Below are positions 11,583-35,017 of a stretch of 64,000 nt of DNA, one piece after another; position 1 is the first letter of the stretch, and each line of letters starts with the position of its first letter. A program made the position numbers and the translations under genes. Origin of the DNA: Candidatus Limnocylindria bacterium (GTDB lineage: Bacteria > Chloroflexota > Limnocylindria > QHBO01); NCBI GenBank assembly GCA_038233215.1, contig JBBSML010000012.1, positions 1,751-65,750 on the forward strand. The letters run 5' to 3'. The notes under the pieces are model-generated. The model saw only the letters and a program-made list of their open reading frames with translations, searched no databases and was not told the origin of the DNA.

Positions 11583-12120
11583 ACGCACCGCGCTCGAGGG
11601 CGTGCAGATCCTCACTCCGGGCGTCCACGCGGATCGGCGTGGATTCCTTGTCGAGTCATATCGCGCGGCCGAGCTGGCCACGGCAGGCATCACCAACCCG
11701 TTCATCCAAGAGAATCACTCGCGATCAGTACGCGGCGCGCTCCGCGGGCTCCACTTCCAGGCCCCGCCGGGCCAGGCCAAGCTGGTGCGCGTGGCACGCG
11801 GTGCCATCCTAGACGTCGTCGTCGACATCCGTCGCTCCTCCCCGACCTTCGGACAACACGTGGCGGTCACCCTCGACGACGCCCTGCACCGCCAGCTGTA
11901 CATTCCGACCGGGTTCGCGCACGGATTCATGGTGCTGACCGAGGACGCGGACGTCATGTACCGACTTGATCGGTACTACGACCCGGCTCTCGAGCGTGGG
12001 GTCGCGTGGGATGACCCGGCCCTCGCCATCGAGTGGCCAGTGGAGAACCCGACGCTCTCCGAACGCGACCGCGCCAATCCGCTGCTGGCCGCCCTCCCCG
12101 CCGAACTTACTGACTGGTGA
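11568..12120 (+). CDS. rmlC: dTDP-4-dehydrorhamnose 3,5-epimerase (cupin)
   Basis: MLRAERTALEGVQILTPGVHADRRGFLVESY...RGLHFQAPPGQAKLVRVARGAILDVVVDIRRSSPTFGQH; start overlaps the rmlD 3' end. Confidence 0.85.
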
Positions 12121-14747: not shown

Positions 14748-14774
14748 ACTTTGCTTCGCAGCCGGTAGATCGTT

Positions 14775-15710
14775 TTGATTCTCAGCCATCCCGAACTCTC
14801 CGTCCTCATCGTCAATTACAACTCCACGAACTTGTTGCGGAAATGCTTGGCTTCGCTCACTGCCAGCACCATCGCGGACCGTCTCGAGGTGATCGTGGTG
14901 GACAACGCTTCCGCAGACTTCGACGCGCCGGCCATCGGGATGGAGTTTCCATGGGCGCGCCTGCTGCCGCAGACGACGAACACGACATGGACCGGCGGCA
15001 ACAACATCGCTTTCGATGTATCTTCCGCGCCCCTGGTCCTCCTGCTTAACCCGGACACTGAGGTGGAGCCCGAAGCGCTCGAACGAGCGGTTCAGCATCT
15101 TCGGGACGACGCTTCGCTCGTCGGTTTGGGAGCGATCCTCATCGGACCAGACGGCAACCTCCAGCACTACTACCGACGGCTCCCGACCGTCCTCGATCTC
15201 CCGATCATTTTGTTCGAACCGATCTTCCGCCGCACTAAGCGCGGAAAGCACTACCTCATGCTCGACGAGGCATTTGATCGTCCAACAGTGGTGCCCCAAC
15301 CGCCGGGGGCGTTTCTCCTCTTTCGGCGAGCCGCAGCCCGTTATCCGCTGCTAGATCCCCAGTACTTCAACTTTGTCAGTGATCTTGACCTATGTCGCGA
15401 TCTCAACCGGTCTGGGCAGTTGGTAGTCTTCCCGGATGTCCGGACGTATCACGTGCGCGCGAATGCAGGCGTCGGATCAAAGAACCCTCGGACCCGTCTC
15501 ACACTGGCCCACGACTTCGGATATGGCGTCCGTTACTACTTCAACAAGTTCGCATCGCCGCCCGAACGCCTTCTTGCTAGTTTGGCCGTAATCGTCTATT
15601 GGGGTACGCGAATGGCTCGTCTTGCGATTCGCCGACCAGCGATCGCAAGCGCTGCGGCCATGCAACTTTTTCGCGCGATCCGCGACGAGCCGCCGTCTTA
15701 CCGATCCTGA
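14775..15710 (+). CDS. GT2 family glycosyltransferase
   Basis: TTG start. PELSVLIVNYNSTNLLRKCLASL...VVDNASAD, a classical GT2 N-terminus. Confidence 0.7.
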   Translation: MILSHPELSVLIVNYNSTNLLRKCLASLTASTIADRLEVIVVDNASADFDAPAIGMEFPWARLLPQTTNTTWTGGNNIAFDVSSAPLVLLLNPDTEVEPEALERAVQHLRDDASLVGLGAILIGPDGNLQHYYRRLPTVLDLPIILFEPIFRRTKRGKHYLMLDEAFDRPTVVPQPPGAFLLFRRAAARYPLLDPQYFNFVSDLDLCRDLNRSGQLVVFPDVRTYHVRANAGVGSKNPRTRLTLAHDFGYGVRYYFNKFASPPERLLASLAVIVYWGTRMARLAIRRPAIASAAAMQLFRAIRDEPPSYRS

Positions 15711-15872
15711 TCGGTACATAGTTGACCGCCCGATCGGCAACATGGCTGCGGGCGGCAAAATCAAGGAGCGCGGCAACTCCGCCAACGCCATCGAACTTGC
15801 CGTGGCGGAGCCGGCCAACACCTGCCGGTGCCTTCATACAAGGTGCCTGGAACGATGCACCCACTACCTTGC

Positions 15873-16538
15873 TCACTTCCCCGGCCGCACCAAGACAAAC
15901 CATTCCGCGGCTAACCACTCGTCGCTGATCCCCCTAGTGGCACGACCCAAGACTGACCGTAGGTGACCCAGCACAGTGCTTTGTGGGTAGCCCCATCGCT
16001 CAGGCTTCCACCCCGCCTGTTCAAGAAGCTCACGTAGATTAGACCTGGTGAAAAAGCGGATGTGAGTCGAATCGAATGTGCCTGACGCTTCGGGCCGAAA
16101 TCCGGCACCGACGGCGATCCGTGCGAGAGCCCTGACGTTTCGAATGTTCGGAATTGAGATCAGTAGGCTCCCTTGTGGCTCAACGACTAATTGCCGAAGC
16201 GCCGCTAGCACCGACCCAGGATCAAGGAGGTGCTCCAGGACATCGGCACAAATGATCAAGTCGAATGGACCGGCAACGTCGGCAATTACACCCTCGACTG
16301 TAGCCCTGTGCACCTCATCGAAGCGCTGCGCCGCAAGTTCGCTGCTCTCTTCGTCCGGCTCGATACCGACGATCGTGGCGGCACCACGGGCGCGCAGCCA
16401 TGGAGCGTTGGCTCCAGCTCCGCATCCCACCTCCAGGACAGACGCGTACTCAGTTCCACCCATCCAATCAAGAAGATCCAGTCTCGGTGTCCCGTAGTAC
16501 TCAGTCCTACTTTTATCAGTGGGTGGAGCATCCCTCAC
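15873..16538 (-). CDS. class I SAM-dependent methyltransferase
   Basis: VLEVGCGAGANAPWL...LIICADVLEHLLDP. Confidence 0.7.
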   Translation of the reverse strand: MRDAPPTDKSRTEYYGTPRLDLLDWMGGTEYASVLEVGCGAGANAPWLRARGAATIVGIEPDEESSELAAQRFDEVHRATVEGVIADVAGPFDLIICADVLEHLLDPGSVLAALRQLVVEPQGSLLISIPNIRNVRALARIAVGAGFRPEASGTFDSTHIRFFTRSNLRELLEQAGWKPERWGYPQSTVLGHLRSVLGRATRGISDEWLAAEWFVLVRPGK

Positions 16539-17950
16539 AATTCACCTCCGCGATGTAACGCGTACAACCGCGGCCACGCGACAGCTCCAGATGCAATAGC
16601 CGCAAGCCCGAACCAAACGGATGTGACAATCGGATCGAGGCCAGACGCCAAGAGCAGCGACGATGCGGCAGCGATGGCGAGAGTTACTATCTGCAGCCGG
16701 CCCGGCCCGGTAGGGACATGTGGACGGACGAGGAGCCAGACACCTACGTAATAGATCGCCTGGGACATTGCATATCCGATCCCTGCTCCAGCCAAACCTA
16801 ATGCTTCCACCGCAATGATTGTCCCCGCGATGAGGGTCGAGCCTCCGATGAGTTCAGCGGAGAAATACGAGAACCCGCGGCCGCGTGCTAGTAATCCGAA
16901 CACGAGGACCCACGCTGGTAGACGGACGAGATCTCCGATGAGCTGCCATTTGAGCACCTCGTATGCCGGAACGAATTCCGGCGAGTACAGCAACTCCATC
17001 AAGAAAGGTCCTGTCGCCAATATCATGAGGATGACTGGAATGCCAAGTCCCATGACTAGACGCATGCGGCGTTCGACCAAAGTCGCCAGCTTGAGCGGGC
17101 TGGAGGCCGCGGAGACGCGCGGTAGATAGTCCTGCATCATCATCGAAAGAAAGACCGTGAGATATCCGATCGAGATGGCCGACGCGGCGCGATAGTGGCC
17201 CACGTCTAAGGTGCTCAACATGTTGAGCACAACGATGGGAATGAGAAGTTGAGCCCCTATCCCAGCCAGCTGACTTCCTTGGATAGGGAGACCTATCCAA
17301 AAGAGATGTGCGGCCTCGGGAATAACGTTCGACCCCGACTCTCGCGGCAGCGCATGACCTCTCGAGAGTGCGATCCGCGATAGCGTTATCTGTACTGCGG
17401 CGGTGACGAGTAGCGCAGGCGCCAATCCAGCCCCACCAAAGATGGCGACAAGCGACACTCCTAATGCCGCTGCAGCCACGGATGTTCCTATATTGATTCC
17501 GGCGACGGTTCGGATCCGGTGAAGACCGGTCAGCACGGCAATCTGCACGCCACCCGCCACGGTCAGCAGAAGCGCCGGCGCCAGGACAACCGGCACGAAA
17601 CTCTGCTCGACGGATCCTAGAAGGAGAACCGCGATGGGTTCTCGAAAGACAACGAGCCCTGCGGCTCCAATAGCGCCGCCCCCAAGCCCGACCAGAAGTC
17701 CAGCGCGCTCGACACTGGAAGGACCTCCCTTGCCGTGCGACGCAGCGCTTGCTGTGGCCCGGATTACGCTCGTCCCGAGGCCGACGCTGGCTAGGATGAC
17801 ACCGAGGTTCAGAAGGGACTGCATCAATGCCAACAGGCCCACGCCATTTGCGCCGATGAGGAGCGCGAGCGCCTTCGCAGCAATCACACTCAGTGCGAGT
17901 GTCACGACTGATCCGAAACCTACGATAGCCGTCACTCGTAGAGGAGCCAT
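16535..17950 (-). CDS. polysaccharide/O-unit flippase (MOP superfamily, Wzx-like)
   Basis: About 14 TM helices with a Gly/Ala-rich hydrophobic profile typical of Wzx. Start uncertain (MAPLRV at 17950, or 18034). Confidence 0.6.
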   Translation of the reverse strand: MAPLRVTAIVGFGSVVTLALSVIAAKALALLIGANGVGLLALMQSLLNLGVILASVGLGTSVIRATASAASHGKGGPSSVERAGLLVGLGGGAIGAAGLVVFREPIAVLLLGSVEQSFVPVVLAPALLLTVAGGVQIAVLTGLHRIRTVAGINIGTSVAAAALGVSLVAIFGGAGLAPALLVTAAVQITLSRIALSRGHALPRESGSNVIPEAAHLFWIGLPIQGSQLAGIGAQLLIPIVVLNMLSTLDVGHYRAASAISIGYLTVFLSMMMQDYLPRVSAASSPLKLATLVERRMRLVMGLGIPVILMILATGPFLMELLYSPEFVPAYEVLKWQLIGDLVRLPAWVLVFGLLARGRGFSYFSAELIGGSTLIAGTIIAVEALGLAGAGIGYAMSQAIYYVGVWLLVRPHVPTGPGRLQIVTLAIAAASSLLLASGLDPIVTSVWFGLAAIASGAVAWPRLYALHRGGEL

Positions 17951-18113
17951 GGAGGCGTCAGATTGGCTAAGCTCTTCCGCCTCCCTTGACACCAGCGCAC
18001 GATAGCGCAGTCGTATCTGCTTGCACCTGTCCATTCAGGCCACTGCGGACCGGTAGTGCTGCTAGAACAGCTACCGCCGGTCTAGCCTGCTGCCCCATGA
18101 CTCTGAGGCACCC

Positions 18114-19289
18114 GTGAGCTCAGCCGAGCAGGAAATCATCCCCTTCCACCGCCCCTCCATTGGCGACCGCGAGATCGCGGCCGCCGTGGAGGTGCTCGAG
18201 TCCGGCTGGCTCACTACCGGATCGAAGGCGCATGCGCTGGAGGCGGCGATCGCGAAGCGCATCGGCGTGACGCATGCGCTGGCGGTGAACAGCGCAACCG
18301 CGGCGCTGCATCTGGCGCTCGACGCCTGGGGTATCGGTCCCGGCGACGAGGTCGTCATCCCCACCACCACCTTCACCTCGTGCGGCGAAGTGTGCGCCTA
18401 CCTGGGCGCGCGGGTCGTGCTGGCCGACGTCGGCGAGGACGCGCTCCTGGGTCCGGCCCAGCTCGAAGCCGTCGTGACCGATGCGACCCGCGTCGTCATG
18501 CCGGTCCACTTCGCGGGGCAGGCCGTCGATGTCGCGGCGCTGCGTGGGATCGCCCCGAACGTTCGCTTCCTGGAGGACGCCGCGCACGCCCTGCCGGCCG
18601 ACGTCCGGGGTGTGCCAACCGGGCGGCTCGGGGATGCCGCCGCCTTCAGCTTCTATGCCACCAAGACGATGACCACCGGCGGCGAGGGCGGCATGCTCGT
18701 GACCGATGACGACGCCGTCGCCGAGCGCGCCCGCCTCATGCGCCTGCATGGCATCAGCGCCGACGCCTGGAACCGGTACGGCGCCGGCGGCACATGGGCA
18801 TACGAGGTCGTAGAGGCCGGCTACAAGTACAACCTGACGGATCTCGCTGCGGCTATCGGCCTCGTGCAGCTGGAGCGACTGGATGAGCTGGCCGATGCGC
18901 GCGCCGCCATCGCCGCTCGCTACGACGGTGCCTTCGCGGAATCGGCGCTGCTCGACCCGCCACCGCGCCGAGACGGTGACCGGCACGCGTGGCATCTCTA
19001 CGTCCTTCGCCTCAACCTGGATGCGCTGACCATCGATCGCGCGAAGGTGATCGAGCGGCTGTCGGAGGCAGGCATCGGCGCAGCGGTCCACTTCATCCCG
19101 CTGCACCTGCATCCGCACTACCAGCAGCGCTACGGCTACACGCCCGGCGACTTCCCTGTGGCCGAGGACATCTTCGAGCGCTCCATCTCCTTGCCAATCT
19201 GGCCGGGCATGACCGAAGCCCAGGTGGAGCGCGTCGCCGCGACGCTCCTCGAGATCTGCGAGGCTGCACGCCGCCCCGCCGAGGTCTGA
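18114..19289 (+). CDS. DegT/DnrJ/EryC1/StrS-family PLP-dependent sugar aminotransferase (PglE/WecE-like)
   Basis: IPFHRPSIGDREIAAAVEVLESGWLTTG...FYATKTMTTGGEGGMLVTDD, the canonical family motifs. Confidence 0.85.
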   Translation: MSSAEQEIIPFHRPSIGDREIAAAVEVLESGWLTTGSKAHALEAAIAKRIGVTHALAVNSATAALHLALDAWGIGPGDEVVIPTTTFTSCGEVCAYLGARVVLADVGEDALLGPAQLEAVVTDATRVVMPVHFAGQAVDVAALRGIAPNVRFLEDAAHALPADVRGVPTGRLGDAAAFSFYATKTMTTGGEGGMLVTDDDAVAERARLMRLHGISADAWNRYGAGGTWAYEVVEAGYKYNLTDLAAAIGLVQLERLDELADARAAIAARYDGAFAESALLDPPPRRDGDRHAWHLYVLRLNLDALTIDRAKVIERLSEAGIGAAVHFIPLHLHPHYQQRYGYTPGDFPVAEDIFERSISLPIWPGMTEAQVERVAATLLEICEAARRPAEV

Positions 19290-19338: not shown

Positions 19339-19569
19339 ATGCGCACGACAGTGACCCTAGACGAGGATGTCGCGGCTGCGGTGAAGCGACTCCGGCGAGA
19401 GGACGGGCTTGGCGTCAGCGAGGCGCTGAACCAGATCGCTCGGGCTGGGCTTGCCCACAAGGAAGCGCGAACGCCGTTCAGGCAGCGCACTGTCAAGATG
19501 GGCCTCCTGGTGGACGTTTCCAATGTCGCGGAAGCCATCGACCTGGCCGAAGGTGCCAGCCATCGCTGA
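19339..19569 (+). CDS. vapB: ribbon-helix-helix antitoxin (VapB-like)
   Basis: MRTTVTLDEDVAAAVKRL...; 76 aa; its stop overlaps the vapC ATG (ATGA). Confidence 0.7.
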   Translation: MRTTVTLDEDVAAAVKRLRREDGLGVSEALNQIARAGLAHKEARTPFRQRTVKMGLLVDVSNVAEAIDLAEGASHR

Positions 19570-19997
19570 TGCTGATCGATGTCAATCTGCTGCTCTATGC
19601 GGCGTACGCAGAGACGCCAGAGCACGAGTTGACTCGGGCATGGCTTCAGGAGCAGTTAAACGGACAGAGACGCGTCGGCCTGCCCTGGGAGTCCCTGGTC
19701 GGCTTCGTTCGACTCGCCACGAATCCACGCGTGTCGCCAAGGGCACTCCGACCAGCTGAGGCGTGGGCATTCGTCGAGGACTGGTTGGCGGCGCCGGTCG
19801 TGTGGGTCCCCACCCCGACGGATGAGCACGCGCAGGTGCTCGGGGGCCTCATCGCGAAGCACAGGATTACCGGCAAGCTCGTGCCCGATGCGCACCTGGT
19901 GGCGCTGGCGATGGAGCATGGCCTCGTCGTGTACTCGGCCGACTCTGACTTCGCGCGATTCCCGGAGATCCGCTGGGTCAATCCGCTCGCTGCGTAG
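19569..19997 (+). CDS. vapC: PIN-domain ribonuclease toxin
   Basis: MLIDVNLLLYA...; PIN acidic residues (D5...E...D...D). Coupled to vapB. Confidence 0.75.
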   Translation: MLIDVNLLLYAAYAETPEHELTRAWLQEQLNGQRRVGLPWESLVGFVRLATNPRVSPRALRPAEAWAFVEDWLAAPVVWVPTPTDEHAQVLGGLIAKHRITGKLVPDAHLVALAMEHGLVVYSADSDFARFPEIRWVNPLAA

Positions 19998-20080: not shown

Positions 20081-22591
20081 GTGAAGCTTTGGCAGGCCGC
20101 CGTCAAGCGGCTGATTGACGTCGTCCTCGGCGCGTTCGGGCTCGTCGTCCTGATCCCGGTCATGGCACTCGTGGTCGTGGCGGTTGCGGTCGATTCAACG
20201 GGTCCGGTCGTCTACGGCGCGCGGCGCGTTGGCCGGCACAGGCGCGAGTTCACGATGTGGAAATTCCGTTCCATGGCCCGTGGCGCAGACAGGGTCGGTC
20301 CGGCGGTGACCGGTGCCTACGACTTCCGCGTGACGCGCGTCGGCGCCTTTTTGCGGCGAACAAAGTTGGATGAGCTTCCGCAGCTGGTGAACGTGCTGGT
20401 GGGCCAGATGTCGCTGGTGGGCCCGCGTCCTGAAGCGCCGGTCTATGTCGAGCGCTGGACGACCGAGGAACGCGAGATCCTTGCCTTCCGACCGGGCATC
20501 ACCGGACCGACGCAGATCGCCTATATCGACGAAGAGGAGCGCCTCGCCGGCGATCCGAACGCGGTGTACGAGTCCGAGCTGATGCATGTCAAGCTCGCGG
20601 TGGACCTCGACTACGTGCGCCGCTTCAGCCTGCGTGGTGACCTCGGGATCATGTGGAAGACGCTCGTCGGCATCCTGTCGGCCGGCGAACGCCGCACGAA
20701 CCGGCCGCGTCGCCGCTACACCCTGGACGAGCGACTGCGCAGTGCCCGCCTGGGGCCCATCCTGCTCGACGCCTTCCTGGCGGCCATGGCAGCGGCCCTG
20801 GCGGTGGGCCTGCGCATCGATCGCAACAACATCTTCGCCGCGGTTGCCACGTACTGGGTCCTCATCCCCCTGGCGGCCATTGTCCGGCCCGCGGGGTTCC
20901 TGATCGCCGGCGCGTACATGCGGGTCTGGCGGTATCCGACCGTCTCCGATGCAGCGCTGATCGTTGGCTCCTTGGCCGCCGGCTCGCTGATCATGACCAT
21001 CCTCATCTTCGTCGTCATGCAACCGTGGGCATTCGCCGGTTCGGTTGGCTTCCCGCGCAGCGCGCTCATCATCGAGTTCCTGGTCTCGTTCATCGTGCTC
21101 GGCGGAATCCGTTTCGCCTCTCGCATTCGCCAGGAAGGCATTGAGGAGGGGATGCCGCCGGCGAGCGCCGGGCCGCCCCGGCCGGTCTTGATCTATGGTG
21201 CCGGTGAGGCGGGAGCGCTGTTGGTTCGCGAGATGCGGCGCAACCGGTCGCTCCGACTTGAGCCGGTCGCCTTCCTTGACGACGATCCGGCGAAGCGCGG
21301 ACAACGTATCTACGGGGTCGAGGTCGTAGGCGGCGCGAAAGATCTGCCGCTCGTGGCAGCCGAGCGCGAGGTGGCCGAGGTGATCGTCGCCATGCCCCGC
21401 ATCGGCGGCGACCTGCTTCGCCAGATCGTTGCCCTCGCGGAGGCCGCGGGCGTTGCCGTGCGCACCCTCCCCGCCGTCGACGAGCTGCTCGACGAAACCG
21501 TGTCTGTGAACCGAGTGCGGCCGGTCCGCGTCGAGGACCTGCTCAGACGGGAACCAATCGCCATCCCTGAAGGACCGATGCGTTCCCTCGTCGAGGGACG
21601 AACCGTCCTGGTCACCGGCGCGGGCGGCAGCATCGGCTCCGAACTTTGCCGCCAGATCGCGTCGCTCGGCGCTCGCCGAATCGTGCTGTTCGAGCGAGCC
21701 GAGACCCCGCTCTTCTACGTCGACGAGGAGACCCGCCGGCGGTTCCCAGGCGTTGAAGTTGTTGCTGTCGTCGGCGACGTGACCGACGAGGGATCCGTGT
21801 CACGCTGCTTTGAGCGTGAGCAGCCGCAGGTCGTCTTCCATGCCGCCGCCCAGAAGCACGTGCCCCTCTCGGAGGCCAACGTCGCCGCGACGGTCTGGAC
21901 CAACGTTCGAGGGACACGCCTAGTCGCGCAAGCGGCCGTTGATATCGGCGTCGAGGCATTCATCTTCATCAGCACCGACAAGGCGGTCGATCCGTCGTCG
22001 ATCATGGGCGCCACAAAGCGCATCGGCGAAGAGCTGGTGCGGACCGCAGGCGCGTCGGCCGTCGGGCGGTTCGTGGTCGTTCGCTTCGGCAACGTGATGG
22101 GGTCACAGGGATCGGTCCTCGAACTCTTCCGGCAGCAGATCGCCGATGGTGGCCCGGTGACGATCACGCACCCGGACATGACGCGGTACTTCATGACGAT
22201 CCCCGAAGCGGTTCGCCTGATCCTGCACGCTGGCGCCGTTGGGCGTCCCGGCGACGTCCACGTCCTGAACATGGGGCAGCCGATCCGGATCGTCGACCTG
22301 GCGAGCGACCTCATCCGTCTTTCGTCACCGGCGGGGTCTCGCGACATTGCCATCGTCTTCACCGGCCTTCGTCCTGGCGAGAAGCTGGAAGAGACATTGT
22401 TCGGGACGGATGAGGAAGCGCTCGAGACGGATTCGCCGTTCCTGCTGGTGGCGCGCCTTGGTGACGAAGGGCCCCTTGGCTCAACGAACCAATTGGCGGC
22501 GCGCCTCGAAGCACTGGCTGGCGAAGGACGGGATGCCGAGTTGCGCGACCAGCTAGGCGGGACCGCCGCAACGAGCGCCGCCCGAGGATGA
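20081..22591 (+). CDS. fusion protein: N-terminal small phosphoglycosyl transferase (Bac_transf/PglC-WbaP catalytic domain) + 4-TM region + C-terminal CapD/PglF/WbpM-type NAD-dependent nucleotide-sugar 4,6-dehydratase
   Basis: N-terminus: [17 protein letters not shown] (hydrophobic helix), [35 protein letters not shown]-terminus: [44 protein letters not shown]. Confidence 0.8.
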
Positions 22592-24750
22592 TCCGCATCG
22601 TTCCCCGCGTGGCACTCCAACTGTGGATCGTCGGGTTCATCGTCTTCTTCGGCGCCGAAGCCATCCACCTCGAGCCGCCCCTGCGCATCGCGACGCAGGT
22701 CCTGTACGGCTTCCCACTGGCGGCGTGGGCGGTATTCCGCCTGCGTGGGCCATACGACAGGCTCGACATGGCCGTTCTCGGGCTTCTGGTCATCTATGCG
22801 ATCCTGTGTCTCTTCAGCCGCGACCGCACCGAGAGCCTTGGCACGCTGGCCCTGGCAACTGCTTACGCGACGTGGTTCCTGCTCCTCCGTCGCGCAGCCG
22901 ATCTGCGCCCGCAGATTGTGCTCGCGATTGGAACCGGGCTCGCTCTCACCCTGGCCTTCAATGCCTACCTGCAGATCCAGGAAAAGGCGACATGGTTCGC
23001 CACCGTCGGCGCGGCGCCGTTCGAGGGAGTGCTGACCTTTCCATGGGAGTCGGTCAACGCGCTCCCGATGCTCGTGTTGATCGCGATTCCGTTCCTGGCC
23101 TGGGTCATACCTTCGCAGATCAAATCGGTTCTGATGTTCGTCGTGGGATTCAGCGCAGTCGTGGTCGTACCTCTCAGCATGGGGCGCGCCGGATGGCTCG
23201 GCCTCGCGGTCGCCGCGCTGCTGGCACTCCTCCTGCCCTCGACCTTGCAGACCTTCGCGAAGACTCGGTGGCAGACCAAAGCACTCGGCGCAGGAGTGGC
23301 GACGGCCGCGGCAGTCGGTGCTGCGGTGCTTGTCGGACCACGGGCGGTAACCGCCATCGCGGAAAGCGGACGCCTGCTTCTCTGGGAACAGGGTTTGGCG
23401 ATGATCATTGGCTCGCCCCTGATCGGATCCGGACCGGGAACGTACTCGTGGGTGCGGCTGGAAGCAGCGCCGGCTGCCGCCGACCTCCTGGCCGTTCGAC
23501 TCGTCCACAACGTTCCGCTCCAGACGCTCGTCGACGGCGGCCTCGTGCTCGGAACCAGCTTGGTCGGCCTGATGGTCGTATGGGGGCTTGCGCTGCATCG
23601 CCGTTGGCCGGCGTGGAGGGTCGCGGACCGAGTCACGTTGGCCTGTGTTACAGGCTTCGTCGCAGCTCTGATCCTCGATGACTTCAGTTACCTACCGGCG
23701 ATCACGGCCAGCTTCCTGGCCGCGGCGGCGTTTCTGGTCCCCGCCTCAGACACGCGAGCTCTGACGCCCGCGCGTGGCCTGGCAGCACCAGCGCTGCTCA
23801 CGCTGGCAGCACTGATTGCTCTGCCGTATGTCGTCGCCGTCGACGTGGCGCGATCAGCGGCACAGGCAGGTCGAGGAGCCATGGTCGACGGAAGCTATGG
23901 CGCGGCGCGAGCGCACTTTGAAGCAGCGACCCAGGCACACCCCGAAAGCGGCGGCTATTGGCTCGGTCTCGGGATGGCCGCGAGCTATGACGGCGACAGG
24001 ACTGGAGCGATCGACGCGTATCGGCGCGCCGTGGCCGTCGCCCCCGGAGATCCGCGGGGGTACGCGGCGCTCGCAGAGCTGGATAGTGGAGCTGACGCCA
24101 GCGTTCTTCTGGAGCAGGCCGCCGACCGCACCTTGGGTGACCCTCAGTACGCGGTTCGGCTGGGGCTCGAGCTGATGGCCGCCGATCGCCCCCACGAGGC
24201 TACGCACGCGTGGAGCCGCGCTGCCGCGCTTCGACCAGACCTCGTGACCACGCTGCCGTACTGGAATCCTGTGACCATGGGAGCGGTCGCTACCGAGGCC
24301 ATGATCACGATCCACAACGAACCCCGTCCCGCTCCGAGAGAGAACATGGAGAATGCTTGGGACCTCGGACTTGCTCTGGATACACTGCCGGCCGACGCTG
24401 ATCCCGCATGGCGGGCGGTGGATGCCGCCCGGCACGGAGACAACGACACCGCACGTGAACTGGCGGAGGGGTCAGTCACTGCCGCACCCTATGTCGCCCG
24501 CGGCTATCAGGCACTTGCGGCGGTCGCTGCGTTCAGTTGTGACCCGACGACGGTCGAGAACGCCCTCCGGCTGGAGGCCCTGAGTCTCGGCGCATACGAG
24601 CCATTACCGCCTGAACCCCACGTGCGGCGCGAGTTCGTGTACCGCGAAGCCAGCCTCGGGCCGACCCAGCCGCCTGCCGTGGAGCCACTCACTGAGCCAG
24701 AAATGTGGCCGTGGTCGCTGGTTCCACGACCCACGGCCTGCGACGGGTGA
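22588..24750 (+). CDS. O-antigen ligase/oligosaccharyltransferase-like (Wzy_C domain) polytopic membrane protein with C-terminal TPR domain
   Basis: About 12 TM helices. Wzy_C signature GSGPGTYSWVRLEAAPAAADLLAVRLVHNVPLQTLVDGGLVLG. The C-terminal about 300 aa are soluble with TPR-like repeats (AYRRAVAVAPGDPRGYAALAEL...). ATGA overlap with the upstream gene. Confidence 0.65.
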   Translation: MIRIVPRVALQLWIVGFIVFFGAEAIHLEPPLRIATQVLYGFPLAAWAVFRLRGPYDRLDMAVLGLLVIYAILCLFSRDRTESLGTLALATAYATWFLLLRRAADLRPQIVLAIGTGLALTLAFNAYLQIQEKATWFATVGAAPFEGVLTFPWESVNALPMLVLIAIPFLAWVIPSQIKSVLMFVVGFSAVVVVPLSMGRAGWLGLAVAALLALLLPSTLQTFAKTRWQTKALGAGVATAAAVGAAVLVGPRAVTAIAESGRLLLWEQGLAMIIGSPLIGSGPGTYSWVRLEAAPAAADLLAVRLVHNVPLQTLVDGGLVLGTSLVGLMVVWGLALHRRWPAWRVADRVTLACVTGFVAALILDDFSYLPAITASFLAAAAFLVPASDTRALTPARGLAAPALLTLAALIALPYVVAVDVARSAAQAGRGAMVDGSYGAARAHFEAATQAHPESGGYWLGLGMAASYDGDRTGAIDAYRRAVAVAPGDPRGYAALAELDSGADASVLLEQAADRTLGDPQYAVRLGLELMAADRPHEATHAWSRAAALRPDLVTTLPYWNPVTMGAVATEAMITIHNEPRPAPRENMENAWDLGLALDTLPADADPAWRAVDAARHGDNDTARELAEGSVTAAPYVARGYQALAAVAAFSCDPTTVENALRLEALSLGAYEPLPPEPHVRREFVYREASLGPTQPPAVEPLTEPEMWPWSLVPRPTACDG

Positions 24751-26270
24751 GGTCGGCATTGCGCAGGAGGATCCCGGCGAGCTGGGTGGCCATCGCCGCA
24801 CTCTTTGCGCTCGTGGCGTTGCCGCGGTCGGCGATTCCGCTCATCGACGGCGATGTGTATTGGCACATTCGGGCCGGCCTCGAGGTGCTCGACACGGGGC
24901 AAGTCCCGGCGGAAGACAGCTGGAGCCTGGTCGGCGACGGCATGCGGTGGCTGAGCCAGGACTGGCTGAGCAACGTGCTCCTCGGCTTGGGATGGCGCCT
25001 CGGAGAGATCGGGCCATCAGCGCTCTCGCTTGCGTGGTCCTCTCTGGTGGTCGCAGCGCTGGCACTGCTCTGGTGGGCCTTCGGCCTGCGACGCCCAGAG
25101 ACCGGATGGCTGGGGCGCATCGGCTGGCTGACCGTCGGGCTTATCGTCGCTGGCCCCGTCCTTGGCGTCCGCGTGCAGGTCGTCGATCTCACGCTGGCGA
25201 CTGCGGTGGTTCTCTCCTGTTGGGGATACCTGGCACGGCCGTCCATCGGTTGGCTCGTGGCACTTCCGACCATCTCGCTCGCGTGGGCCAATCTGCACGC
25301 AGGCTGGCCGCTCATCTTCATCGTCGGTGGCGCCATCGTCATCGGCGAGGCAGCCGACCGGGTGCTGAAACGCCGACCACCGCACAACATGCTGACATGG
25401 CGGCAGATCGCCCTGCTCGGTGGTGCGCTCGTCGTCTCGATCATGCCGATCGCAGTCAATCCGAGTGGTCTTGAGCTGTATGCCTACCCTCTCGAAACTT
25501 CTTCAATCGCAGCCCATCGCGACTTCATATCGGAATGGCAGTCTCCGGATCCGGGAACCATCGTCGGACAGTTGTTCATCGTCTTCGTCGTGGTGATCGT
25601 CCTGCCGTCGCTCTGGATCGGTCGCCGGACGATGCGTGCCGCTGACGCGCTCGTCATCGCGGGCATGACCGTGATGATCGCCCTCGGTGCGCGGTTTCTG
25701 CTGCTCGCGCCGATCATCGCCGCGACGGCCGGACTCACGCTCGAACCGGCGATCAGCGGGACGGCGCTCGGCCGTCGATTTTCGAGGCCACTGGCACGCC
25801 TCGGTACGGCGCGGAGTGGGGCATTCCTCAACGTGGTGAACGCCGCCCTCATCGGCATCATGGTGCTGGCCGGCCTGGGCGTCGCGTGGGCGCGGGCCAG
25901 CCCTACCGCACAGCGCGAGCTCGTCGCCGACCACATGCCGGTCGGCGCGGTTGACTGGATCATCGCCAATGACCCCGGAGCCCGCCCCTTCAACCAGTAT
26001 TCATGGGGCGGATACCTGGGTCTGCGACGGCCCGACCATCCCATCTACATCGATGGCCGATCCGACATTTACGGCGACCGCCCGATACGCGAGTACGCGA
26101 ACGCGGTCCAGCTCGAGACCGATCCACAGGAACTCTTCGATCGCTACGCGATCGACTACATCCTCTTCCCGCCGAATCAGCCGCTCTCGCAGTGGCTTGA
26201 AGACTCGCCCATCTGGCAGCGTGAATACGTGGACGCCATCGCAGCGGTGTGGATCCGCTTGAATGAATAG
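24705..26270 (+). CDS. uncharacterised polytopic membrane protein, GT-C glycosyltransferase-like (paralog of 27111..28547)
   Basis: N-terminal loop motif PLIDGDVYWH...GQVPAEDSWS. About 11 TM helices. C-terminal soluble domain with YIDGRSDIYGDRPIREY. Shares both motifs with the minus-strand paralog. Confidence 0.5.
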   Translation: MAVVAGSTTHGLRRVRSALRRRIPASWVAIAALFALVALPRSAIPLIDGDVYWHIRAGLEVLDTGQVPAEDSWSLVGDGMRWLSQDWLSNVLLGLGWRLGEIGPSALSLAWSSLVVAALALLWWAFGLRRPETGWLGRIGWLTVGLIVAGPVLGVRVQVVDLTLATAVVLSCWGYLARPSIGWLVALPTISLAWANLHAGWPLIFIVGGAIVIGEAADRVLKRRPPHNMLTWRQIALLGGALVVSIMPIAVNPSGLELYAYPLETSSIAAHRDFISEWQSPDPGTIVGQLFIVFVVVIVLPSLWIGRRTMRAADALVIAGMTVMIALGARFLLLAPIIAATAGLTLEPAISGTALGRRFSRPLARLGTARSGAFLNVVNAALIGIMVLAGLGVAWARASPTAQRELVADHMPVGAVDWIIANDPGARPFNQYSWGGYLGLRRPDHPIYIDGRSDIYGDRPIREYANAVQLETDPQELFDRYAIDYILFPPNQPLSQWLEDSPIWQREYVDAIAAVWIRLNE

Positions 26271-27144
26271 GCCGCGCGTTGCAGAAATGATGAGCTCACC
26301 ACAGCTGCGGCGGCTGCTCAGGGATGGAACTCTTATCGCGGCCATCGTCTTCATCGGCTTCGTATGGTGGCTGGTCACGTTCAACGACTATCAGCACGAT
26401 GCCCGGGCTTACTGGGCGGCTGGCCTGGATAGCCCCTACGCCGATGCACTCGTTGGCGGCTCGGATGCGTACCTCTATTCGCCCGTCTTCGCGCAGCTCG
26501 CCTTTCCGCTGAGCCTGCTGCCATTCGAGGTGTTCCGAGGCATCTGGGCCGTGCTGAATCTCGGCGCCCTGGTCTGGCTGACTGGACCCCGACTCGGTGC
26601 CCTCATGTTGATCATCCCCGGCTCGCCGGTAATCGACGAGGTGGCCACGGGCAATGTCCATCTCCTCATCGCGGCCGCCATCTACGCGAGCCTGTGGAGG
26701 CCGGCCGCATGGGCATTCCCGCTGCTCACGAAGATCACCCCGGGGATCGGCGCCGCCTACCTCCTGGGCGCGCGACGCTGGCGCGCCTTCGCGGAGGCAG
26801 TGGGGGTTTCCGTTGCGTTGAGCGTCATCTCGTTCGCGATCGTCCCCGACCTGTGGTTCGAATGGTTGCGCGTCCTCACCTCGAGCACGAGCGTTCCTGT
26901 TCCTGGCGAGATTGCGATCATTCCGGGCCCGCTTTCGGTCCGCGTGGCAGCTGCTGGCGCGATCGCCCTCGTTGGTGGCATACGCGGCTGGCGGTGGGTG
27001 ATGCCGGTGGCGGCCATGATTGCCCTGCCGGTCCCGTGGTCGTCCGGCCTGAGCCTCCTGGTCGCCGTGGTAGCGCTGTGGCGGTCCGGGCACCTTGTCG
27101 AGCCCAAGGCTCAGGCGGCTGGCGAGGGCGCCCGCGTGACCTGA
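26263..27144 (+). CDS. GT87/DUF2029-family membrane glycosyltransferase (paralog 5)
   Basis: Core ATGNVHLLIAAAIYASLWRPAAWAFPLLTKITPGIGAAYLL, as in paralogs 1-4. Confidence 0.65.
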   Translation: MNRPRVAEMMSSPQLRRLLRDGTLIAAIVFIGFVWWLVTFNDYQHDARAYWAAGLDSPYADALVGGSDAYLYSPVFAQLAFPLSLLPFEVFRGIWAVLNLGALVWLTGPRLGALMLIIPGSPVIDEVATGNVHLLIAAAIYASLWRPAAWAFPLLTKITPGIGAAYLLGARRWRAFAEAVGVSVALSVISFAIVPDLWFEWLRVLTSSTSVPVPGEIAIIPGPLSVRVAAAGAIALVGGIRGWRWVMPVAAMIALPVPWSSGLSLLVAVVALWRSGHLVEPKAQAAGEGARVT

Positions 27145-28547
27145 TCACAGGGGAGAAGGAGGACCGCTCGCTCGTCGCGAAACGCCTCGCACCAGCCTGC
27201 CCGCTCATCCATCGAAGCCAACGGCGCGCTGGGAGGAAGGAGGATCGCCTCAACCCCACGGTCGGCGGCGACCGTTTGCCAGCCGGACTCCGCGCCGCGG
27301 ATGGCCAGGTACTCCTCGAATATCTCGCGCGGGTACATGTCGCTCCGGCCATCGATGAACACTGATCCACCAGAGCCGTACAGGCGGTGGATCGCCCACC
27401 CGCCCCAGTCGTAGTCGACCAATGCCTGAACATCGGGTTCGACGGCGACCAACTGATCCATGGCTGCGCTGGGAAAGACCTCATCTTCGGCCTGGCTGAC
27501 CGCAGGTGGCAGAACGATGACGATCCCGACGACCACCACTGCCGCCAGCCCCAATTCCAGGATGCGGCGTTGGCGCGCGCTGGCGACCGAGCGCGCCCGC
27601 GGCGGCCGAAGGCGAGAGTCGAGCCCAATCGCGAGCATGGGCATCGTCATCACCACCGCAAGCGGGGCGTTACGAACTGCCACGAGGGCACCCAGGGCAC
27701 CGACAACTGCCACTGCCGTGAGCCACCCCGGCGCACCGCGTCGACCAAGGGCAATGACGCCGACGATCAGAAGTGCGACGCCCCATTGCCGCGGGTCAGT
27801 GAAATCGGCCGGCTGCCACTCAGCGATGAAGCTGGTGCCCCAATCGTCCTGGCGCAGGTACCGCAGCGGATAAACGATGCCGTCAAGGCCTGCGGGCGTG
27901 ATCGCAGAGGCAAGTGCGCCGCCAAGGAGCATGCCGACCGCCGTCCATCGCCGTGGCGCAAGCGCGGTTCGACCGAGAAGCGAGAACAGGACGTACACGC
28001 CCACCACTCCAACGCCCACGATCCAGAGACCGTGGAGGTTCGCCCACAGCGCCAGCAACGGAACCACGAGCCATGGCCGGATCCGGTGGTTGACGCGCAG
28101 GCCGAACAGCAGGGCGAGCAAGACAGCAAGAAGCAGCCACGAGAGCACCTGTGGACGTACCGTCGCGAACGAGGCGAGCACGTAGGTGCCGACCACCAGG
28201 AATGGCGTCAGCGCGCGGACTGCGATCCTGTGTCGGTGGAGCATGAACGCGGGGACGAGGAGCGCGCCAGCGGTGGCCAACCCAAAGATGGCAGCTGTGA
28301 CCGGGTAGCCGACGGTCCCCACAAGAGCGGCGATCACCACCTCGCCGAGCCATTCATGAGCGACCCAGGGCCCGTCATAGGCGAAAGAAAACGGATCGTT
28401 CGTCGGCACATCACCGCTGCCGAGAATCAGGCGTCCCGTCTCGAGGTGCCACCAGTAATCTGCGTCGATCGGACCGCGTGCCTCAACCAGCACAATGAAG
28501 AACGCGGCGACGACGGCCGCCAGGATCGTCAGCGGCGAGGGGAGCAT
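27111..28547 (-). CDS. uncharacterised polytopic membrane protein, GT-C glycosyltransferase-like (paralog of 24705..26270)
   Basis: GPIDADYWWHLETGRLILGSGDVPTNDPFSF...; C-terminus FIDGRSDMYPREIFEEY. Confidence 0.5.
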   Translation of the reverse strand: MLPSPLTILAAVVAAFFIVLVEARGPIDADYWWHLETGRLILGSGDVPTNDPFSFAYDGPWVAHEWLGEVVIAALVGTVGYPVTAAIFGLATAGALLVPAFMLHRHRIAVRALTPFLVVGTYVLASFATVRPQVLSWLLLAVLLALLFGLRVNHRIRPWLVVPLLALWANLHGLWIVGVGVVGVYVLFSLLGRTALAPRRWTAVGMLLGGALASAITPAGLDGIVYPLRYLRQDDWGTSFIAEWQPADFTDPRQWGVALLIVGVIALGRRGAPGWLTAVAVVGALGALVAVRNAPLAVVMTMPMLAIGLDSRLRPPRARSVASARQRRILELGLAAVVVVGIVIVLPPAVSQAEDEVFPSAAMDQLVAVEPDVQALVDYDWGGWAIHRLYGSGGSVFIDGRSDMYPREIFEEYLAIRGAESGWQTVAADRGVEAILLPPSAPLASMDERAGWCEAFRDERAVLLLPCDQVTRAPSPAA

Positions 28548-30217: not shown

Positions 30218-30317
30218 TACTTCCGAGGCTCAAAGTACTGTTGCCCGGATGCACTCGGGGCCGACAGCATGGACGCGACGTCCGGTACTACGCCGGACAC
30301 GGTACTCCAGGGACCTT

Positions 30318-31337: not shown

Positions 31338-31350
31338 GGAGGAGAGCCTA

Positions 31351-33727: not shown

Positions 33728-33762
33728 GCTGGCGCTCGCGCCAGCTCTGACGGTTCACCATC

Positions 33763-34995: not shown

Positions 34996-35017
34996 GACCA
35001 TTGGAAGGACGCAGCAC

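What the first reader, a model, noticed from the sequence alone, without database searches (positions are those of the whole stretch)
20081..22591. Single polypeptide fusing an initiating phosphoglycosyl transferase to a PglF/CapD-type UDP-sugar 4,6-dehydratase
The N-terminal 200 aa carry the complete small-PGT catalytic domain: re-entrant helix, KFRSM, and DE dyad ([22 protein letters not shown]). They are followed by four TM helices and the C-terminal NAD-dependent dehydratase ([18 protein letters not shown]). In characterised pathways (Campylobacter PglC/PglF, Pseudomonas WbpL/WbpM) these are separate proteins acting at the first and last cytoplasmic steps of making undecaprenyl-PP-linked 4-amino-6-deoxy sugars. 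A fusion would physically couple nucleotide-sugar tailoring to lipid-carrier loading. The only well-known PGT fusion partner is an acetyltransferase, in Neisseria PglB.
Basis: partly seen in the sequence, partly recalled or inferred. Interest (0 to 1): 0.7.

Follow-up and report, generated by a model that had tools for sequence, protein, structure and literature searches.

The report
Sugar-starter enzyme fused to sugar dehydratase
One gene in this Chloroflexota-like genome really does join the enzyme that loads the first sugar onto the membrane lipid carrier to the enzyme that begins tailoring that sugar, but the same fusion occurs in many uncultured bacteria and belongs to an already recognised class of bifunctional starter enzymes.

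Summary
The 836-aa ORF at 20081-22591 (+) is real, uninterrupted and reproducibly assembled. It carries a complete monotopic phosphoglycosyl transferase (PGT) domain (PF02397, aa 9-199). A basic linker follows, then four TM helices, the PF13727 nucleotide-binding 'DUF', and a PglF-type UDP-GlcNAc 4,6-dehydratase (PF02719, aa 509-786). Catalytic residues of both halves are conserved across 86 fusion homologues (32-97% identity).

The fusion is not unique. At least 55 clusters at 50% identity share it, in Chloroflexota (Limnocylindria), Dormiibacterota, Nitrospinota and Nitrospirota. Their linkers are unrelated, and the fused forms are scattered on a dehydratase tree.

Unfused versions in the same gene order are common. 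One is Shigella sonnei wbgX(DegT)-wbgY(PGT)-wbgZ(dehydratase), with a 14-nt gap between the last two. Here a DegT aminotransferase lies upstream, and a Wzy_C/TPR gene is translationally coupled downstream.

Best reading: a fused WbgY+WbgZ-type enzyme. It makes UDP-4-keto-6-deoxy-GlcNAc, DegT aminates it, and the PGT half loads the 4-amino sugar onto undecaprenyl phosphate.

Rival reading: direct transfer of the 4-keto sugar, as in Rhizobium WreU.

Novelty is modest: a new, uncharacterised member of the known bifunctional-PGT class.

The parts
20081..22591 (+). Whole fusion gene, 836 aa: PGT - linker - 4 TM helices - DUF (PF13727) - PglF-type dehydratase
   Evidence: ORF. Pfam. Identical protein on two assemblies. 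Full-length homologues.
20081..20689 (+). Monotopic phosphoglycosyl transferase catalytic domain (aa 1-203), including the membrane helix aa ~11-37 with invariant P26, K61-F-R-S-M, the D97-E98 dyad (nt 20369-20374) and P115-R116-P117
   Evidence: PF02397 full-length hit. WbaP E 1.6e-24 and PglC E 4.5e-19. In A2 (86 seqs) P26 is invariant and K61, D97, E98, P115, R116, P117 are conserved in at least 90% of sequences. All of these are invariant in A1. pLDDT 80-97.
20690..20746 (+). Basic linker (aa 204-222, [19 protein letters not shown]). It is the relic of the former intergenic region plus the dehydratase N-terminus, and it is conserved within the Chloroflexota family
   Evidence: 9 K/R in aa 200-228. 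R211, R212, E217 invariant in A1. Low pLDDT at 204-209. Linkers of the L007/L009/L013 fusions are unrelated.
20747..21127 (+). Four-transmembrane-helix bundle (aa ~223-349) of the PglF/large-PGT type
   Evidence: Hydropathy. AF2 helices 224-246, 251-276, 288-313, 326-349. Second stretch of the TIGR03025 large-PGT model.
21173..21472 (+). Cytoplasmic Rossmann-like 'DUF' / CoA_binding_3 domain (aa ~365-464), the module shared by large PGTs and PglF-like dehydratases
   Evidence: PF13727 E 5.6e-12. 3NKL match E 3.3e-12. pLDDT ~90. The role in WbaP (UMP sensing, dimerisation) comes from PMC10942596.
21605..22438 (+). NAD-dependent UDP-GlcNAc 4,6-dehydratase domain (aa 509-786): G513-x-G-G516-S-I-G519, S631-T632-D633-K634 (T-D-K at nt 21974-21982), M642, K646
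   Evidence: PF02719 E 1e-102. C. jejuni PglF 5BJU E 8.6e-71, with the TDK and Met positions aligned. Foldseek TM(target) 0.88-0.89, rmsd 2.0 A. Residues invariant or at least 90% conserved.
18114..19289 (+). DegT/DnrJ/EryC1 UDP-4-keto-sugar C4-aminotransferase, the conserved upstream partner
   Evidence: PF01041 E 4e-112. Closest to ArnB and PseC. 45% identity to S. sonnei WbgX. Adjacent in L001-L005, L010, L025, L009.
22588..24750 (+). Wzy_C (O-antigen ligase/polymerase/O-OTase family) + TPR membrane protein. Its start overlaps the fusion's stop codon (ATGA). It is the conserved downstream partner
   Evidence: PF04932 plus TPR. ATGA overlap. Conserved in L001, L003, L004, L005 and a JGI contig.
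16535..18034 (-). Wzx-type flippase (Polysacc_synt_3) of the same glycan cluster
   Evidence: PF13440. Weak WzxE hit.
19339..19997 (+). RHH antitoxin (19339-19569) + PIN toxin (19569-19997) inserted between DegT and the fusion. Not part of the pathway
   Evidence: PF01402 and PF01850. Gene calls in L084. Absent in L003/L005, and a different TA pair sits there in L001.

Best explanation
The gene encodes a bifunctional inner-membrane enzyme that arose by loss of the stop codon between an adjacent small-PGT gene and a pglF/wbgZ-like dehydratase gene. It is the fused equivalent of Shigella sonnei WbgY+WbgZ.

Topology (inferred): the N-terminal helix dips into the cytoplasmic leaflet. The PGT catalytic domain, the basic linker, the DUF and the dehydratase all lie in the cytoplasm. 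An even number (4) of TM helices sits between them.

Chemistry (inferred by homology):
1. The C-terminal domain converts UDP-GlcNAc to UDP-2-acetamido-2,6-dideoxy-xylo-hexos-4-ulose (UDP-KdgNAc), using tightly bound NAD+ and the T632/D633/K634 triad.
2. The separately encoded DegT aminotransferase just upstream converts this to a UDP-2-acetamido-4-amino-2,4,6-trideoxyhexose (FucNAc4N or Bac type; the C4 stereochemistry is not determinable). No N4-acetylation follows, because no acetyltransferase is encoded in the cluster.
3. The N-terminal PGT domain (D97-E98 dyad, covalent phosphosugar intermediate as in PglC) transfers the sugar-1-phosphate to undecaprenyl phosphate and releases UMP.
4. GT2 enzymes then extend the lipid-linked sugar, with dTDP-rhamnose supplied by the rmlABCD genes. 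A Wzx-like protein flips it, and the translationally coupled Wzy_C/TPR protein handles it.

The fusion guarantees 1:1 stoichiometry. It also places the first committed sugar-tailoring step at the membrane beside the lipid-loading step. The shared 4TMH-DUF module probably acts as the dimerisation and uridine-nucleotide-sensing scaffold, as in WbaP.
For: Shown here:
- Intact ORF and architecture.
- Both catalytic sets conserved in 60 close homologues and in 86 homologues down to 32% identity.
- Dehydratase matches PglF by sequence (E 8.6e-71) and by fold (TM 0.88-0.89), including TDK and the Met that marks retaining PglF-type enzymes.
- PGT matches WbaP and PglC.
- Confident AF2 model, pLDDT 88.4.
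- Four TM helices and a K/R-rich linker.
- DegT - fusion - Wzy_C/TPR synteny conserved from 58 to 97% identity.
- Unfused pairs in the same order with gaps of a few to about 130 nt: 12 nt from stop to ATG in L008, also L017, L036, L025, L029. Anaerolineae L025 has DegT - sPGT - pglF.
- S. sonnei pSS has DegT(wbgX) - sugar transferase(wbgY) - dehydratase(wbgZ) with a 14-nt gap.
- The window's PGT domain is closer to WbgY (42%, 149 bits) than to the WreU-like PGT (35%, 95 bits). It groups with the other DegT-associated PGTs. Its DegT is 45% identical to WbgX.
- No acetyltransferase in nt 1-37,000, and no GLLLP motif of diNAcBac-specific PGTs (motif definition from PMC10186338).

From the literature:
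- S. sonnei O-antigen contains FucNAc4N, and wbgX/wbgZ are tied to its synthesis (PMC4368438, PMC6467956).
- The DUF of WbaP binds UMP/UDP and mediates dimerisation, and the 4TMH+DUF module is shared with PglF (PMC10942596).
Against: - No biochemistry exists for any member.
- The two fused activities would be non-consecutive (steps 1 and 3), whereas characterised fusions such as Neisseria PglB join consecutive steps.
- WbgY's own donor substrate has not, to my knowledge, been shown in vitro, so the WbgY-versus-WreU similarity argument is indirect.
- C4 stereochemistry and any later N-modification are unknown. Several methyltransferases are in the cluster.
- Inter-domain geometry could not be read from the model (no coordinates or PAE available), so channelling is unsupported.
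- The fate of the glycan (cell-wall polymer or protein O-glycan) is unknown.
Confidence: 0.6

Rival explanations
1. Consecutive-step coupling (WreV/WreU-like). The dehydratase domain makes UDP-KdgNAc, and the fused PGT domain immediately transfers the 4-keto sugar-1-phosphate to Und-P. Amination by the DegT enzyme, or other tailoring, then occurs on the lipid-linked sugar.
For: R. etli WreU, S. suis Cps9F and V. vulnificus WbfU clusters of small PGTs use UDP-KdgNAc, with later steps on UndPP-sugar (PMC11626204). Rhizobium has the same sPGT - dehydratase gene order. Fusions usually join consecutive reactions, and the labile 4-keto intermediate would benefit most from proximity.
Against: The window's PGT domain is clearly closer to the DegT-associated WbgY group than to WreU-like PGTs (149 against 95 bits). 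WreU-type loci lack DegT, whereas DegT is tightly syntenic here. From my knowledge, DegT-family enzymes characterised so far act on nucleotide sugars. ArnB and PseC, which act on nucleotide sugars, are the nearest relatives.
Confidence: 0.25
2. The fusion is selectively neutral bookkeeping. A stop-codon loss between two overlapping or adjacent genes is tolerated because both halves already sit at the membrane with compatible topology. It gives no kinetic or regulatory benefit, and the two domains work independently, possibly even serving different glycans.
For: Fused and unfused forms are interspersed on the dehydratase tree (at least 28 changes on a rough NJ tree) and linkers are unrelated, implying easy gain and loss. 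A close Limnocylindria relative (L008) keeps them separate with a 12-nt gap.
Against: The fusion has persisted through divergence to 57% identity within one family, with a conserved linker. It has arisen in three formats: PGT-N, PGT-C and polytopic-PGT fusions. That argues for recurrent selection for physical coupling.
Confidence: 0.1
3. Artefact or pseudogene: a frameshift, mis-assembly or read-through of two genes, or one half is catalytically dead.
For: High-GC metagenome assemblies do produce spurious long ORFs. One relative (L010, nanopore MAG) is broken by frameshifts.
Against: Identical protein in two assemblies. More than 110 full-length homologues. Both catalytic sites conserved. Coding-type GC3. 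Confident AF2 model of all domains.
Confidence: 0.02

Closest known systems
Shigella sonnei / Plesiomonas shigelloides O17 WbgX-WbgY-WbgZ (form I O-antigen, FucNAc4N initiation)
   Same: Same three activities in the same gene order: DegT aminotransferase, small monotopic PGT, 4TMH-DUF-dehydratase. There is no acetyltransferase. A Wzx flippase and an O-antigen-ligase-family gene are in the cluster. Identities are 42% (PGT), about 40% (whole) and 45% (DegT).
   Different: There WbgY (196 aa) and WbgZ (639 aa) are separate proteins with a 14-nt intergenic gap. Here they form one polypeptide joined by a conserved basic linker. The host is a Chloroflexota-like bacterium, not a proteobacterium with LPS.
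Campylobacter jejuni PglF (UDP-GlcNAc 4,6-dehydratase) and PglC (small monoPGT)
   Same: The dehydratase domain has the PglF fold, the T-D-K triad and Met in place of the SDR Tyr. The PGT domain has the PglC-type DE dyad, PRP motif and a proline-containing membrane helix.
   Different: In Campylobacter they are separate proteins, and the pathway includes the PglD acetyltransferase to give diNAcBac. Here the GLLLP motif of diNAcBac PGTs is absent and no acetyltransferase is encoded.
Bifunctional monoPGTs (Bi-PGT class), prototype Neisseria PglB (acetyltransferase + PGT)
   Same: A monotopic PGT catalytic core is fused to another enzyme of the same UDP-sugar pathway. The class is recognised from the SSN analysis of about 38,000 monoPGTs (as cited in PMC11626204, PMC10186338, PMC12802240).
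   Different: The partner here is a membrane-integral dehydratase carrying its own 4TMH-DUF module. It probably catalyses the first, not the penultimate, step. I found no experimental characterisation of this architecture, and could not read the 2021 paper to see whether it is listed.
Large monoPGTs (WbaP/WcaJ/CpsE: 4TMH-DUF-PGT)
   Same: They contain the same three building blocks: the 4TMH bundle, the PF13727 DUF and the PGT core. TIGR03025 matches in two stretches. WbaP is the best PDB hit for the PGT domain.
   Different: The order is permuted (PGT-4TMH-DUF instead of 4TMH-DUF-PGT), and a dehydratase follows the DUF.
Rhizobium etli WreU/WreV
   Same: Adjacent small PGT then PglF-like dehydratase, in the same order, with an O-antigen ligase gene nearby.
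   Different: Unfused, with no DegT. The PGT belongs to a different subgroup that uses UDP-KdgNAc.

Membership tests
Monotopic phosphoglycosyl transferase superfamily (PF02397; PglC/WbaP core) | Full-length match to the Bac_transf profile above the curated cut-off | tested here: met
   187.6 bits against a cut-off of 27, profile 1-178/179. WbaP E 1.6e-24, PglC E 4.5e-19.
Monotopic phosphoglycosyl transferase superfamily (PF02397; PglC/WbaP core) | Asp-Glu catalytic dyad, conserved Lys/Arg (KFR) and the PRP nucleotide-binding motif | tested here: met
   D97-E98, K61/R63 and P115-R116-P117 are present. They are invariant in A1 and at least 90% conserved in A2.
Monotopic phosphoglycosyl transferase superfamily (PF02397; PglC/WbaP core) | Re-entrant (helix-break-helix) membrane helix rather than a spanning helix | tested here: inconclusive
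   Hydrophobic helix aa 11-37 with basic residues on both sides, and P26 invariant in 86 sequences. Equivalence to PglC Pro24 is inferred from alignment offsets only. The AF2 DSSP string shows one long helix and no coordinates were available.
Monotopic phosphoglycosyl transferase superfamily (PF02397; PglC/WbaP core) | Transfers sugar-1-phosphate from a UDP-sugar to polyprenyl phosphate | not testable with these tools
   Requires an enzyme assay (UMP-Glo or radiolabel).
PglF/WbpM/CapD-type membrane-bound UDP-GlcNAc 4,6-dehydratases (PF02719 with N-terminal 4TMH + PF13727) | Polysacc_synt_2 SDR domain with GxGGxIG NAD-binding motif | tested here: met
   PF02719 E 1e-102. G513-A-G-G-S-I-G519 with the glycines invariant.
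PglF/WbpM/CapD-type membrane-bound UDP-GlcNAc 4,6-dehydratases (PF02719 with N-terminal 4TMH + PF13727) | Thr-Asp-Lys catalytic triad, and Met replacing the canonical SDR Tyr (retaining dehydratase signature) | tested here: met
   S631-T632-D633-K634 and M642 align to PglF T395/D396/K397 and M405. The mutant PDB entries 5BJW, 5BJX and 5BJY mark those positions.
PglF/WbpM/CapD-type membrane-bound UDP-GlcNAc 4,6-dehydratases (PF02719 with N-terminal 4TMH + PF13727) | Four TM helices followed by the PF13727 Rossmann-like domain, upstream of the SDR domain | tested here: met
   Hydropathy and AF2 helices. PF13727 E 5.6e-12.
PglF/WbpM/CapD-type membrane-bound UDP-GlcNAc 4,6-dehydratases (PF02719 with N-terminal 4TMH + PF13727) | PglF fold | tested here: met
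   Foldseek against 5BJU: TM(target) 0.88-0.89, rmsd 2.0 A over 331 columns.
Bifunctional monoPGTs (Bi-PGT) | A second catalytic domain of the same glycan pathway fused in one polypeptide to the monoPGT core | tested here: met
   Single ORF with both domains. Pathway linkage is supported by DegT/Wzx/Wzy_C synteny.
UDP-diNAcBac-specific PGTs (PglC cluster) | GLLLP loop motif, aromatic box, C-terminal extension; pathway acetyltransferase present | tested here: not met
   The loop reads [23 protein letters not shown], with no GLLLP. PglC aligns only over aa 5-147 at 72 bits. No acetyltransferase in nt 1-37,000. The motif definition comes from PMC10186338. The aromatic box was not checked residue by residue.
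UDP-KdgNAc-specific PGTs (WreU cluster) | Sequence clustering with WreU, and a locus lacking a nucleotide-sugar aminotransferase | tested here: not met
   95 bits to the WreU-like PGT against 149 bits to WbgY. WreU-like PGTs (L036, L061, L029) form a separate group without DegT. This rests on pairwise scores only, not a formal SSN.

The most novel reading that the evidence does not exclude
The natural PGT-4TMH-DUF-dehydratase fusion is found alongside the reverse-order (4TMH-DUF-dehydratase-PGT) fusion and the polytopic-PGT-DUF-dehydratase fusion. Together they may reveal that the 'puzzling' 4TMH-DUF module shared by PglF-like dehydratases and large PGTs is a dedicated docking and regulatory scaffold. 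On this view it assembles the dehydratase, the aminotransferase and the PGT into a membrane metabolon. Large PGTs (4TMH-DUF-PGT) would then have originated from dehydratase-PGT fusions by loss of the dehydratase domain.
Probability: 0.15. Interest if true: 0.6.

Novelty: new member of a known kind. Interest (0 to 1): 0.3.

Why it matters
Initiating PGTs and PglF-type dehydratases are considered antibacterial targets and are hard to study as separate membrane proteins. A naturally fused, well-conserved version offers a single-chain construct for structural work on how UDP-sugar tailoring is coupled to lipid-carrier loading.

It also gives a direct test of two open points in the PGT field. The first is why PglF-like dehydratases carry the same 4TMH-DUF module as large PGTs. 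The second is whether the PGT acts on the 4-keto or the 4-amino sugar.

For annotation, the fusion is currently named 'SDR family NAD(P)-dependent oxidoreductase' in NCBI records. That name hides the initiating transferase of the glycan clusters of Limnocylindria and other uncultured lineages.

In itself the finding is an expected kind of gene fusion between neighbouring pathway genes, not a new mechanism.

Tried and rejected
- Hidden stop or frameshift: rejected.
- First AF2 run with 60 close homologues: the PGT domain was unusable (pLDDT ~40-50). It was rerun with 86 diverse fusions and succeeded. No coordinates or PAE are exposed, so inter-domain distances and active-site orientation could not be measured.
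- Foldseek against afdb50 was unavailable. This prevented a census of identical architectures in UniProt/AFDB.
- The key paper (O'Toole, Imperiali, Allen 2021 PNAS) could not be opened by PMC id or DOI. Full-text searches for PF02397+PF02719 and for 'dehydratase domain' + fused + PGT found no description of this architecture.
- diNAcBac specificity was considered and rejected: no GLLLP motif and no acetyltransferase.
- The listing of cluster members on ten distant fusions returned no organism names. Taxonomy therefore rests on the genome contigs titles.
- Several apparent full-length tblastn matches (L008, L012, L017, L025, L029, L036, L038, L061, L071) turned out to be adjacent genes, not fusions.
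- The NJ-tree count of fusion and fission events is rough: the sequences are only about 40% identical, and the top-150 selection is biased toward fused proteins.
Full report
**1. Observation**

An open reading frame of 836 codons (GTG start) runs from 20081 to 22591 on the + strand with no interruption. Pfam gives three non-overlapping blocks:
- PF02397 Bac_transf, aa 9-199, covering the whole profile (1-178/179), E 2e-55.
- PF13727 CoA_binding_3, aa 301-464, E 5.6e-12.
- PF02719 Polysacc_synt_2, aa 509-786, E 1e-102.

The other SDR families listed overlap PF02719 and add nothing. NCBIfam gives generic large-PGT models (TIGR03025, in two stretches: the PGT core and the TM/DUF part). For the C-terminus it gives sub-threshold PseB/FnlA hits.

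Hydropathy shows one N-terminal hydrophobic helix (aa ~11-37) flanked by basic residues. A linker with 9 K/R follows (aa 200-228), then four hydrophobic helices.

The exact protein is called on two independently assembled contigs. More than 110 cluster representatives at 58-97% identity match it end to end with the same Pfam content. Codon-position GC is that of a real gene. A frameshift or mis-assembly is therefore excluded as far as sequence data allow.

**2. Are both halves functional?**

*Dehydratase half.* Against solved structures, it matches C. jejuni PglF (5BJU) at E 8.6e-71. S631-T632-D633-K634 align to the PglF T395/D396/K397 triad. M642 aligns to the Met405 that replaces the SDR tyrosine. 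The deposited point mutants 5BJW, 5BJX and 5BJY mark exactly these columns.

*PGT half.* It matches the WbaP catalytic domain (E 1.6e-24) and PglC (E 4.5e-19), with the Asp-Glu dyad (D97-E98) and PRP motif in place.

*Conservation.* In an alignment of 60 close fusions (A1), these residues are invariant in both halves. In 86 fusions down to 32% identity (A2), they remain invariant or at least 90% conserved.

*Structure.* AlphaFold2 with the shallow alignment failed on the PGT domain. With A2 it gave mean pLDDT 88.4 and pTM 0.69. Only the two linkers (204-209, 352-362) and the C-terminal tail were disordered. Foldseek places the C-terminal domain on PglF with target TM-score 0.88-0.89 and rmsd 2.0 A.

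*Topology.* It follows by inference. The dehydratase needs cytoplasmic NAD+ and UDP-GlcNAc. An even number of TM helices separates it from the PGT domain, so both active sites face the cytoplasm.

**3. Context**

The window carries a Wzx/Wzy-type glycan cluster:
- rmlA, rmlB, rmlD and rmlC (8849-12120).
- Methyltransferases and two GT2 enzymes.
- A Wzx-like flippase (16535-18034, minus strand).
- A DegT aminotransferase (18114-19289).
- An RHH/PIN toxin-antitoxin pair (19339-19997).
- The fusion itself.
- A 720-aa Wzy_C+TPR membrane protein whose ATG overlaps the fusion's TGA (ATGA).
- GT87-family membrane glycosyltransferases.

No acetyltransferase is encoded between nt 1 and 37,000.

The triad DegT - fusion - Wzy_C/TPR is conserved in relatives at 82%, 73% and 58% identity. 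The TA pair is not: it is absent in L003, and a different pair on the other strand sits there in L001.

The aminotransferase is nearest to ArnB and PseC, both UDP-4-keto-sugar C4-aminotransferases, without reaching any equivalog cut-off.

**4. Distribution and origin**

Named close relatives are Chloroflexota, mostly Candidatus Limnocylindria.

A scan of one genome per species returned many apparent full-length matches. ORF-level checking showed only some are fusions:
- Single-ORF fusions: Limnocylindria/Chloroflexia MAGs (L004, L005), a Nitrospinaceae MAG (L007, 835 aa), a Dormiibacterota MAG (L009, 874 aa) and a Nitrospirae MAG (L013, 967 aa).
- Adjacent small-PGT then pglF-like genes, same strand and order, with small gaps: L008 (Limnocylindria), L017 and L036 (Rhizobium), L025 (Anaerolineae) and L029 (Armatimonadetes). 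In L008 the arrangement is TAA, 9 nt, then ATG.
- DegT - sPGT - pglF, the unfused image of the window: L025.

The linkers of the L007, L009 and L013 fusions are unrelated to the conserved [13 protein letters not shown](x)ERL linker of the window's family.

An exhaustive HMMER search of 1.84 billion 50%-identity representatives shows how common the architecture is. Classifying its best 150 hits gives:

| Architecture | Count among best 150 |
|---|---|
| PGT-N fusions (same as the window) | 55 |
| Reverse order (4TMH-DUF-dehydratase-PGT) | 4 |
| Dehydratase with another N-terminal extension | 9 |
| Dehydratase alone | 82 |

Eight sampled PGT-N fusions at 34-47% identity all have Bac_transf - CoA_binding_3 - Polysacc_synt_2. 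One of the nine extended proteins is a polytopic PGT (PF00953) fused to the dehydratase.

On a rough NJ tree of the dehydratase domain, fused and unfused forms are thoroughly interspersed (at least 28 state changes). The tree is noisy, and the top-150 sample is biased toward fused proteins. Even so, monophyly of the fused forms is clearly not supported.

The simplest history is repeated stop-codon loss (and possibly re-splitting) between neighbouring sPGT and pglF-like genes.

**5. Mechanism**

Two annotated reference loci were retrieved from the plasmid collection.

*Shigella sonnei pSS* encodes, in order: a DegT aminotransferase (wbgX), a 196-aa sugar transferase (wbgY), and 14 nt later a 639-aa dehydratase (wbgZ). 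It sits next to the flippase and O-antigen-ligase-family genes. The S. sonnei O-unit contains FucNAc4N, and wbgX/wbgZ are linked to its synthesis (PMC4368438, PMC6467956).

*Rhizobium phaseoli* has a WreU/WreV-like sPGT - dehydratase pair without DegT. For R. etli WreU, the literature shows that the PGT takes UDP-KdgNAc, the dehydratase product, directly. Reduction then occurs on the lipid (PMC11626204).

Pairwise comparison splits the PGT domains into two groups:
- A DegT-associated group: the window, L025, L009, L007, L008, WbgY and L071.
- A WreU-like group without DegT: R. phaseoli, L036, L061 and L029.

The window's PGT domain scores 149 bits (42%) to WbgY against 95 bits (35%) to the WreU-like protein. 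Its DegT is 45% identical to WbgX. The GLLLP motif that marks diNAcBac-specific PGTs (PMC10186338) is absent.

I therefore favour (0.6) a fused WbgY+WbgZ-type enzyme. The route would be dehydratase, then separate DegT, then PGT loading a 2-acetamido-4-amino-2,4,6-trideoxyhexose onto Und-P.

The consecutive-step alternative, direct transfer of the 4-keto sugar with amination afterwards, remains open (0.25). WbgY's substrate is itself inferred, and fusions usually join consecutive reactions.

All chemistry is inferred by homology. Only architecture, conservation and synteny are shown.

**6. Comparison with what is known**

Bifunctional monoPGTs are a recognised class. The PGT literature divides monoPGTs into small, large and bifunctional. 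It cites the 2021 SSN study for fusions to acetyltransferases, glycosyltransferases, sugar-modifying and regulatory domains.

I could not open that paper. I therefore cannot say whether this exact architecture is listed there. From memory of its abstract, 'sugar-modifying enzymes' are one of three common partner types.

No searchable paper describes or characterises a PGT-PglF fusion.

One point of specialist interest remains. Dodge et al. 2024 (PMC10942596) call the shared 4TMH-DUF module of large PGTs and PglF-like dehydratases 'puzzling' and treat the two enzyme classes as functionally unrelated. The three fusion formats found here show that PGTs and these dehydratases are repeatedly joined in nature. 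They also offer a conceivable route to the large-PGT architecture. This is speculation (probability about 0.15).

**7. Verdict**

The fusion is genuine, ancient within its lineage, and catalytically intact.

It is also widespread in metagenomes. It is easily derived from a common gene order.

I rate it a new, uncharacterised member of the bifunctional-PGT kind, interest 0.3.

Noticed in passing
window 19339-19997; L001 9063-9760: The intergenic spot between DegT and the fusion is a toxin-antitoxin insertion site. The window has RHH + PIN on the + strand. Relative L001 has a different PhdYeFM + PIN pair on the - strand. L003 and L005 have none.
   Followed up: partly
window 13800-18050: A lower-GC island (0.59-0.60 against about 0.66) holds a GT2, a methyltransferase and the Wzx-like flippase on the minus strand. 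These ORFs fail the GC3 filter that the other genes pass. This is probably a horizontally exchanged, variable part of the glycan cluster.
   Followed up: no
window 4176-5117, 5985-7070, 7587-8471, 26263-27144: Four paralogous GT87-family (polyprenyl-phosphate-sugar-dependent, GT-C-like) membrane glycosyltransferases flank the cluster. GT87 genes are also conserved next to the fusion in L001 and L003.
   Followed up: no
proteins P0161 (also P0169, P0199) and P0174 (also P0192, P0203, P0258): Other PGT/dehydratase fusion formats exist in metagenomes. One is a polytopic PGT (PF00953 Glycos_transf_4) + PF13727 + PF02719, confirmed for P0161. P0169 and P0199 are inferred from matching length and match position only. 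The other is the reverse order PF13727 + PF02719 + PF02397, Pfam-confirmed for P0174. The other three were classified by BLAST domain order.
   Followed up: partly
window 22588-24750: A 720-aa Wzy_C + TPR membrane protein is translationally coupled to the fusion (ATGA overlap) and conserved in all close relatives. Whether it is a polymerase, a ligase or a protein O-oligosaccharyltransferase in this probably LPS-less lineage is unknown.
   Followed up: partly
protein P0001 (97% identical, 4.4-kb contig): It is labelled 'MAG: Rhizobiales bacterium', while every other close relative is Chloroflexota/Limnocylindria. This is probably a mis-binned contig. NCBI names these fusions 'SDR family NAD(P)-dependent oxidoreductase', which hides the PGT half.
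   Followed up: no
L010 7920-11419: The orthologous fusion in a nanopore-derived Chloroflexia MAG is split over several frames. This is most likely homopolymer indel errors, not a real pseudogene.
   Followed up: no
window 24705-26270, 27111-28547 (-), 28598-30217: Three large ORFs (478-539 aa) with coding-type GC3 have no Pfam hit. They lie downstream of the Wzy_C gene, and products of similar size occur in the same place in L001. They may be uncharacterised membrane proteins of the glycan system.
   Followed up: no
window 32831-40575: A Tad/Flp-type pilus locus begins here (RcpC/CpaB-like 32831-33727, CpaF-like secretion ATPase 35018-36469). It follows a HisKA_3 kinase / LuxR-type response-regulator pair at 30048-32085.
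   Followed up: no
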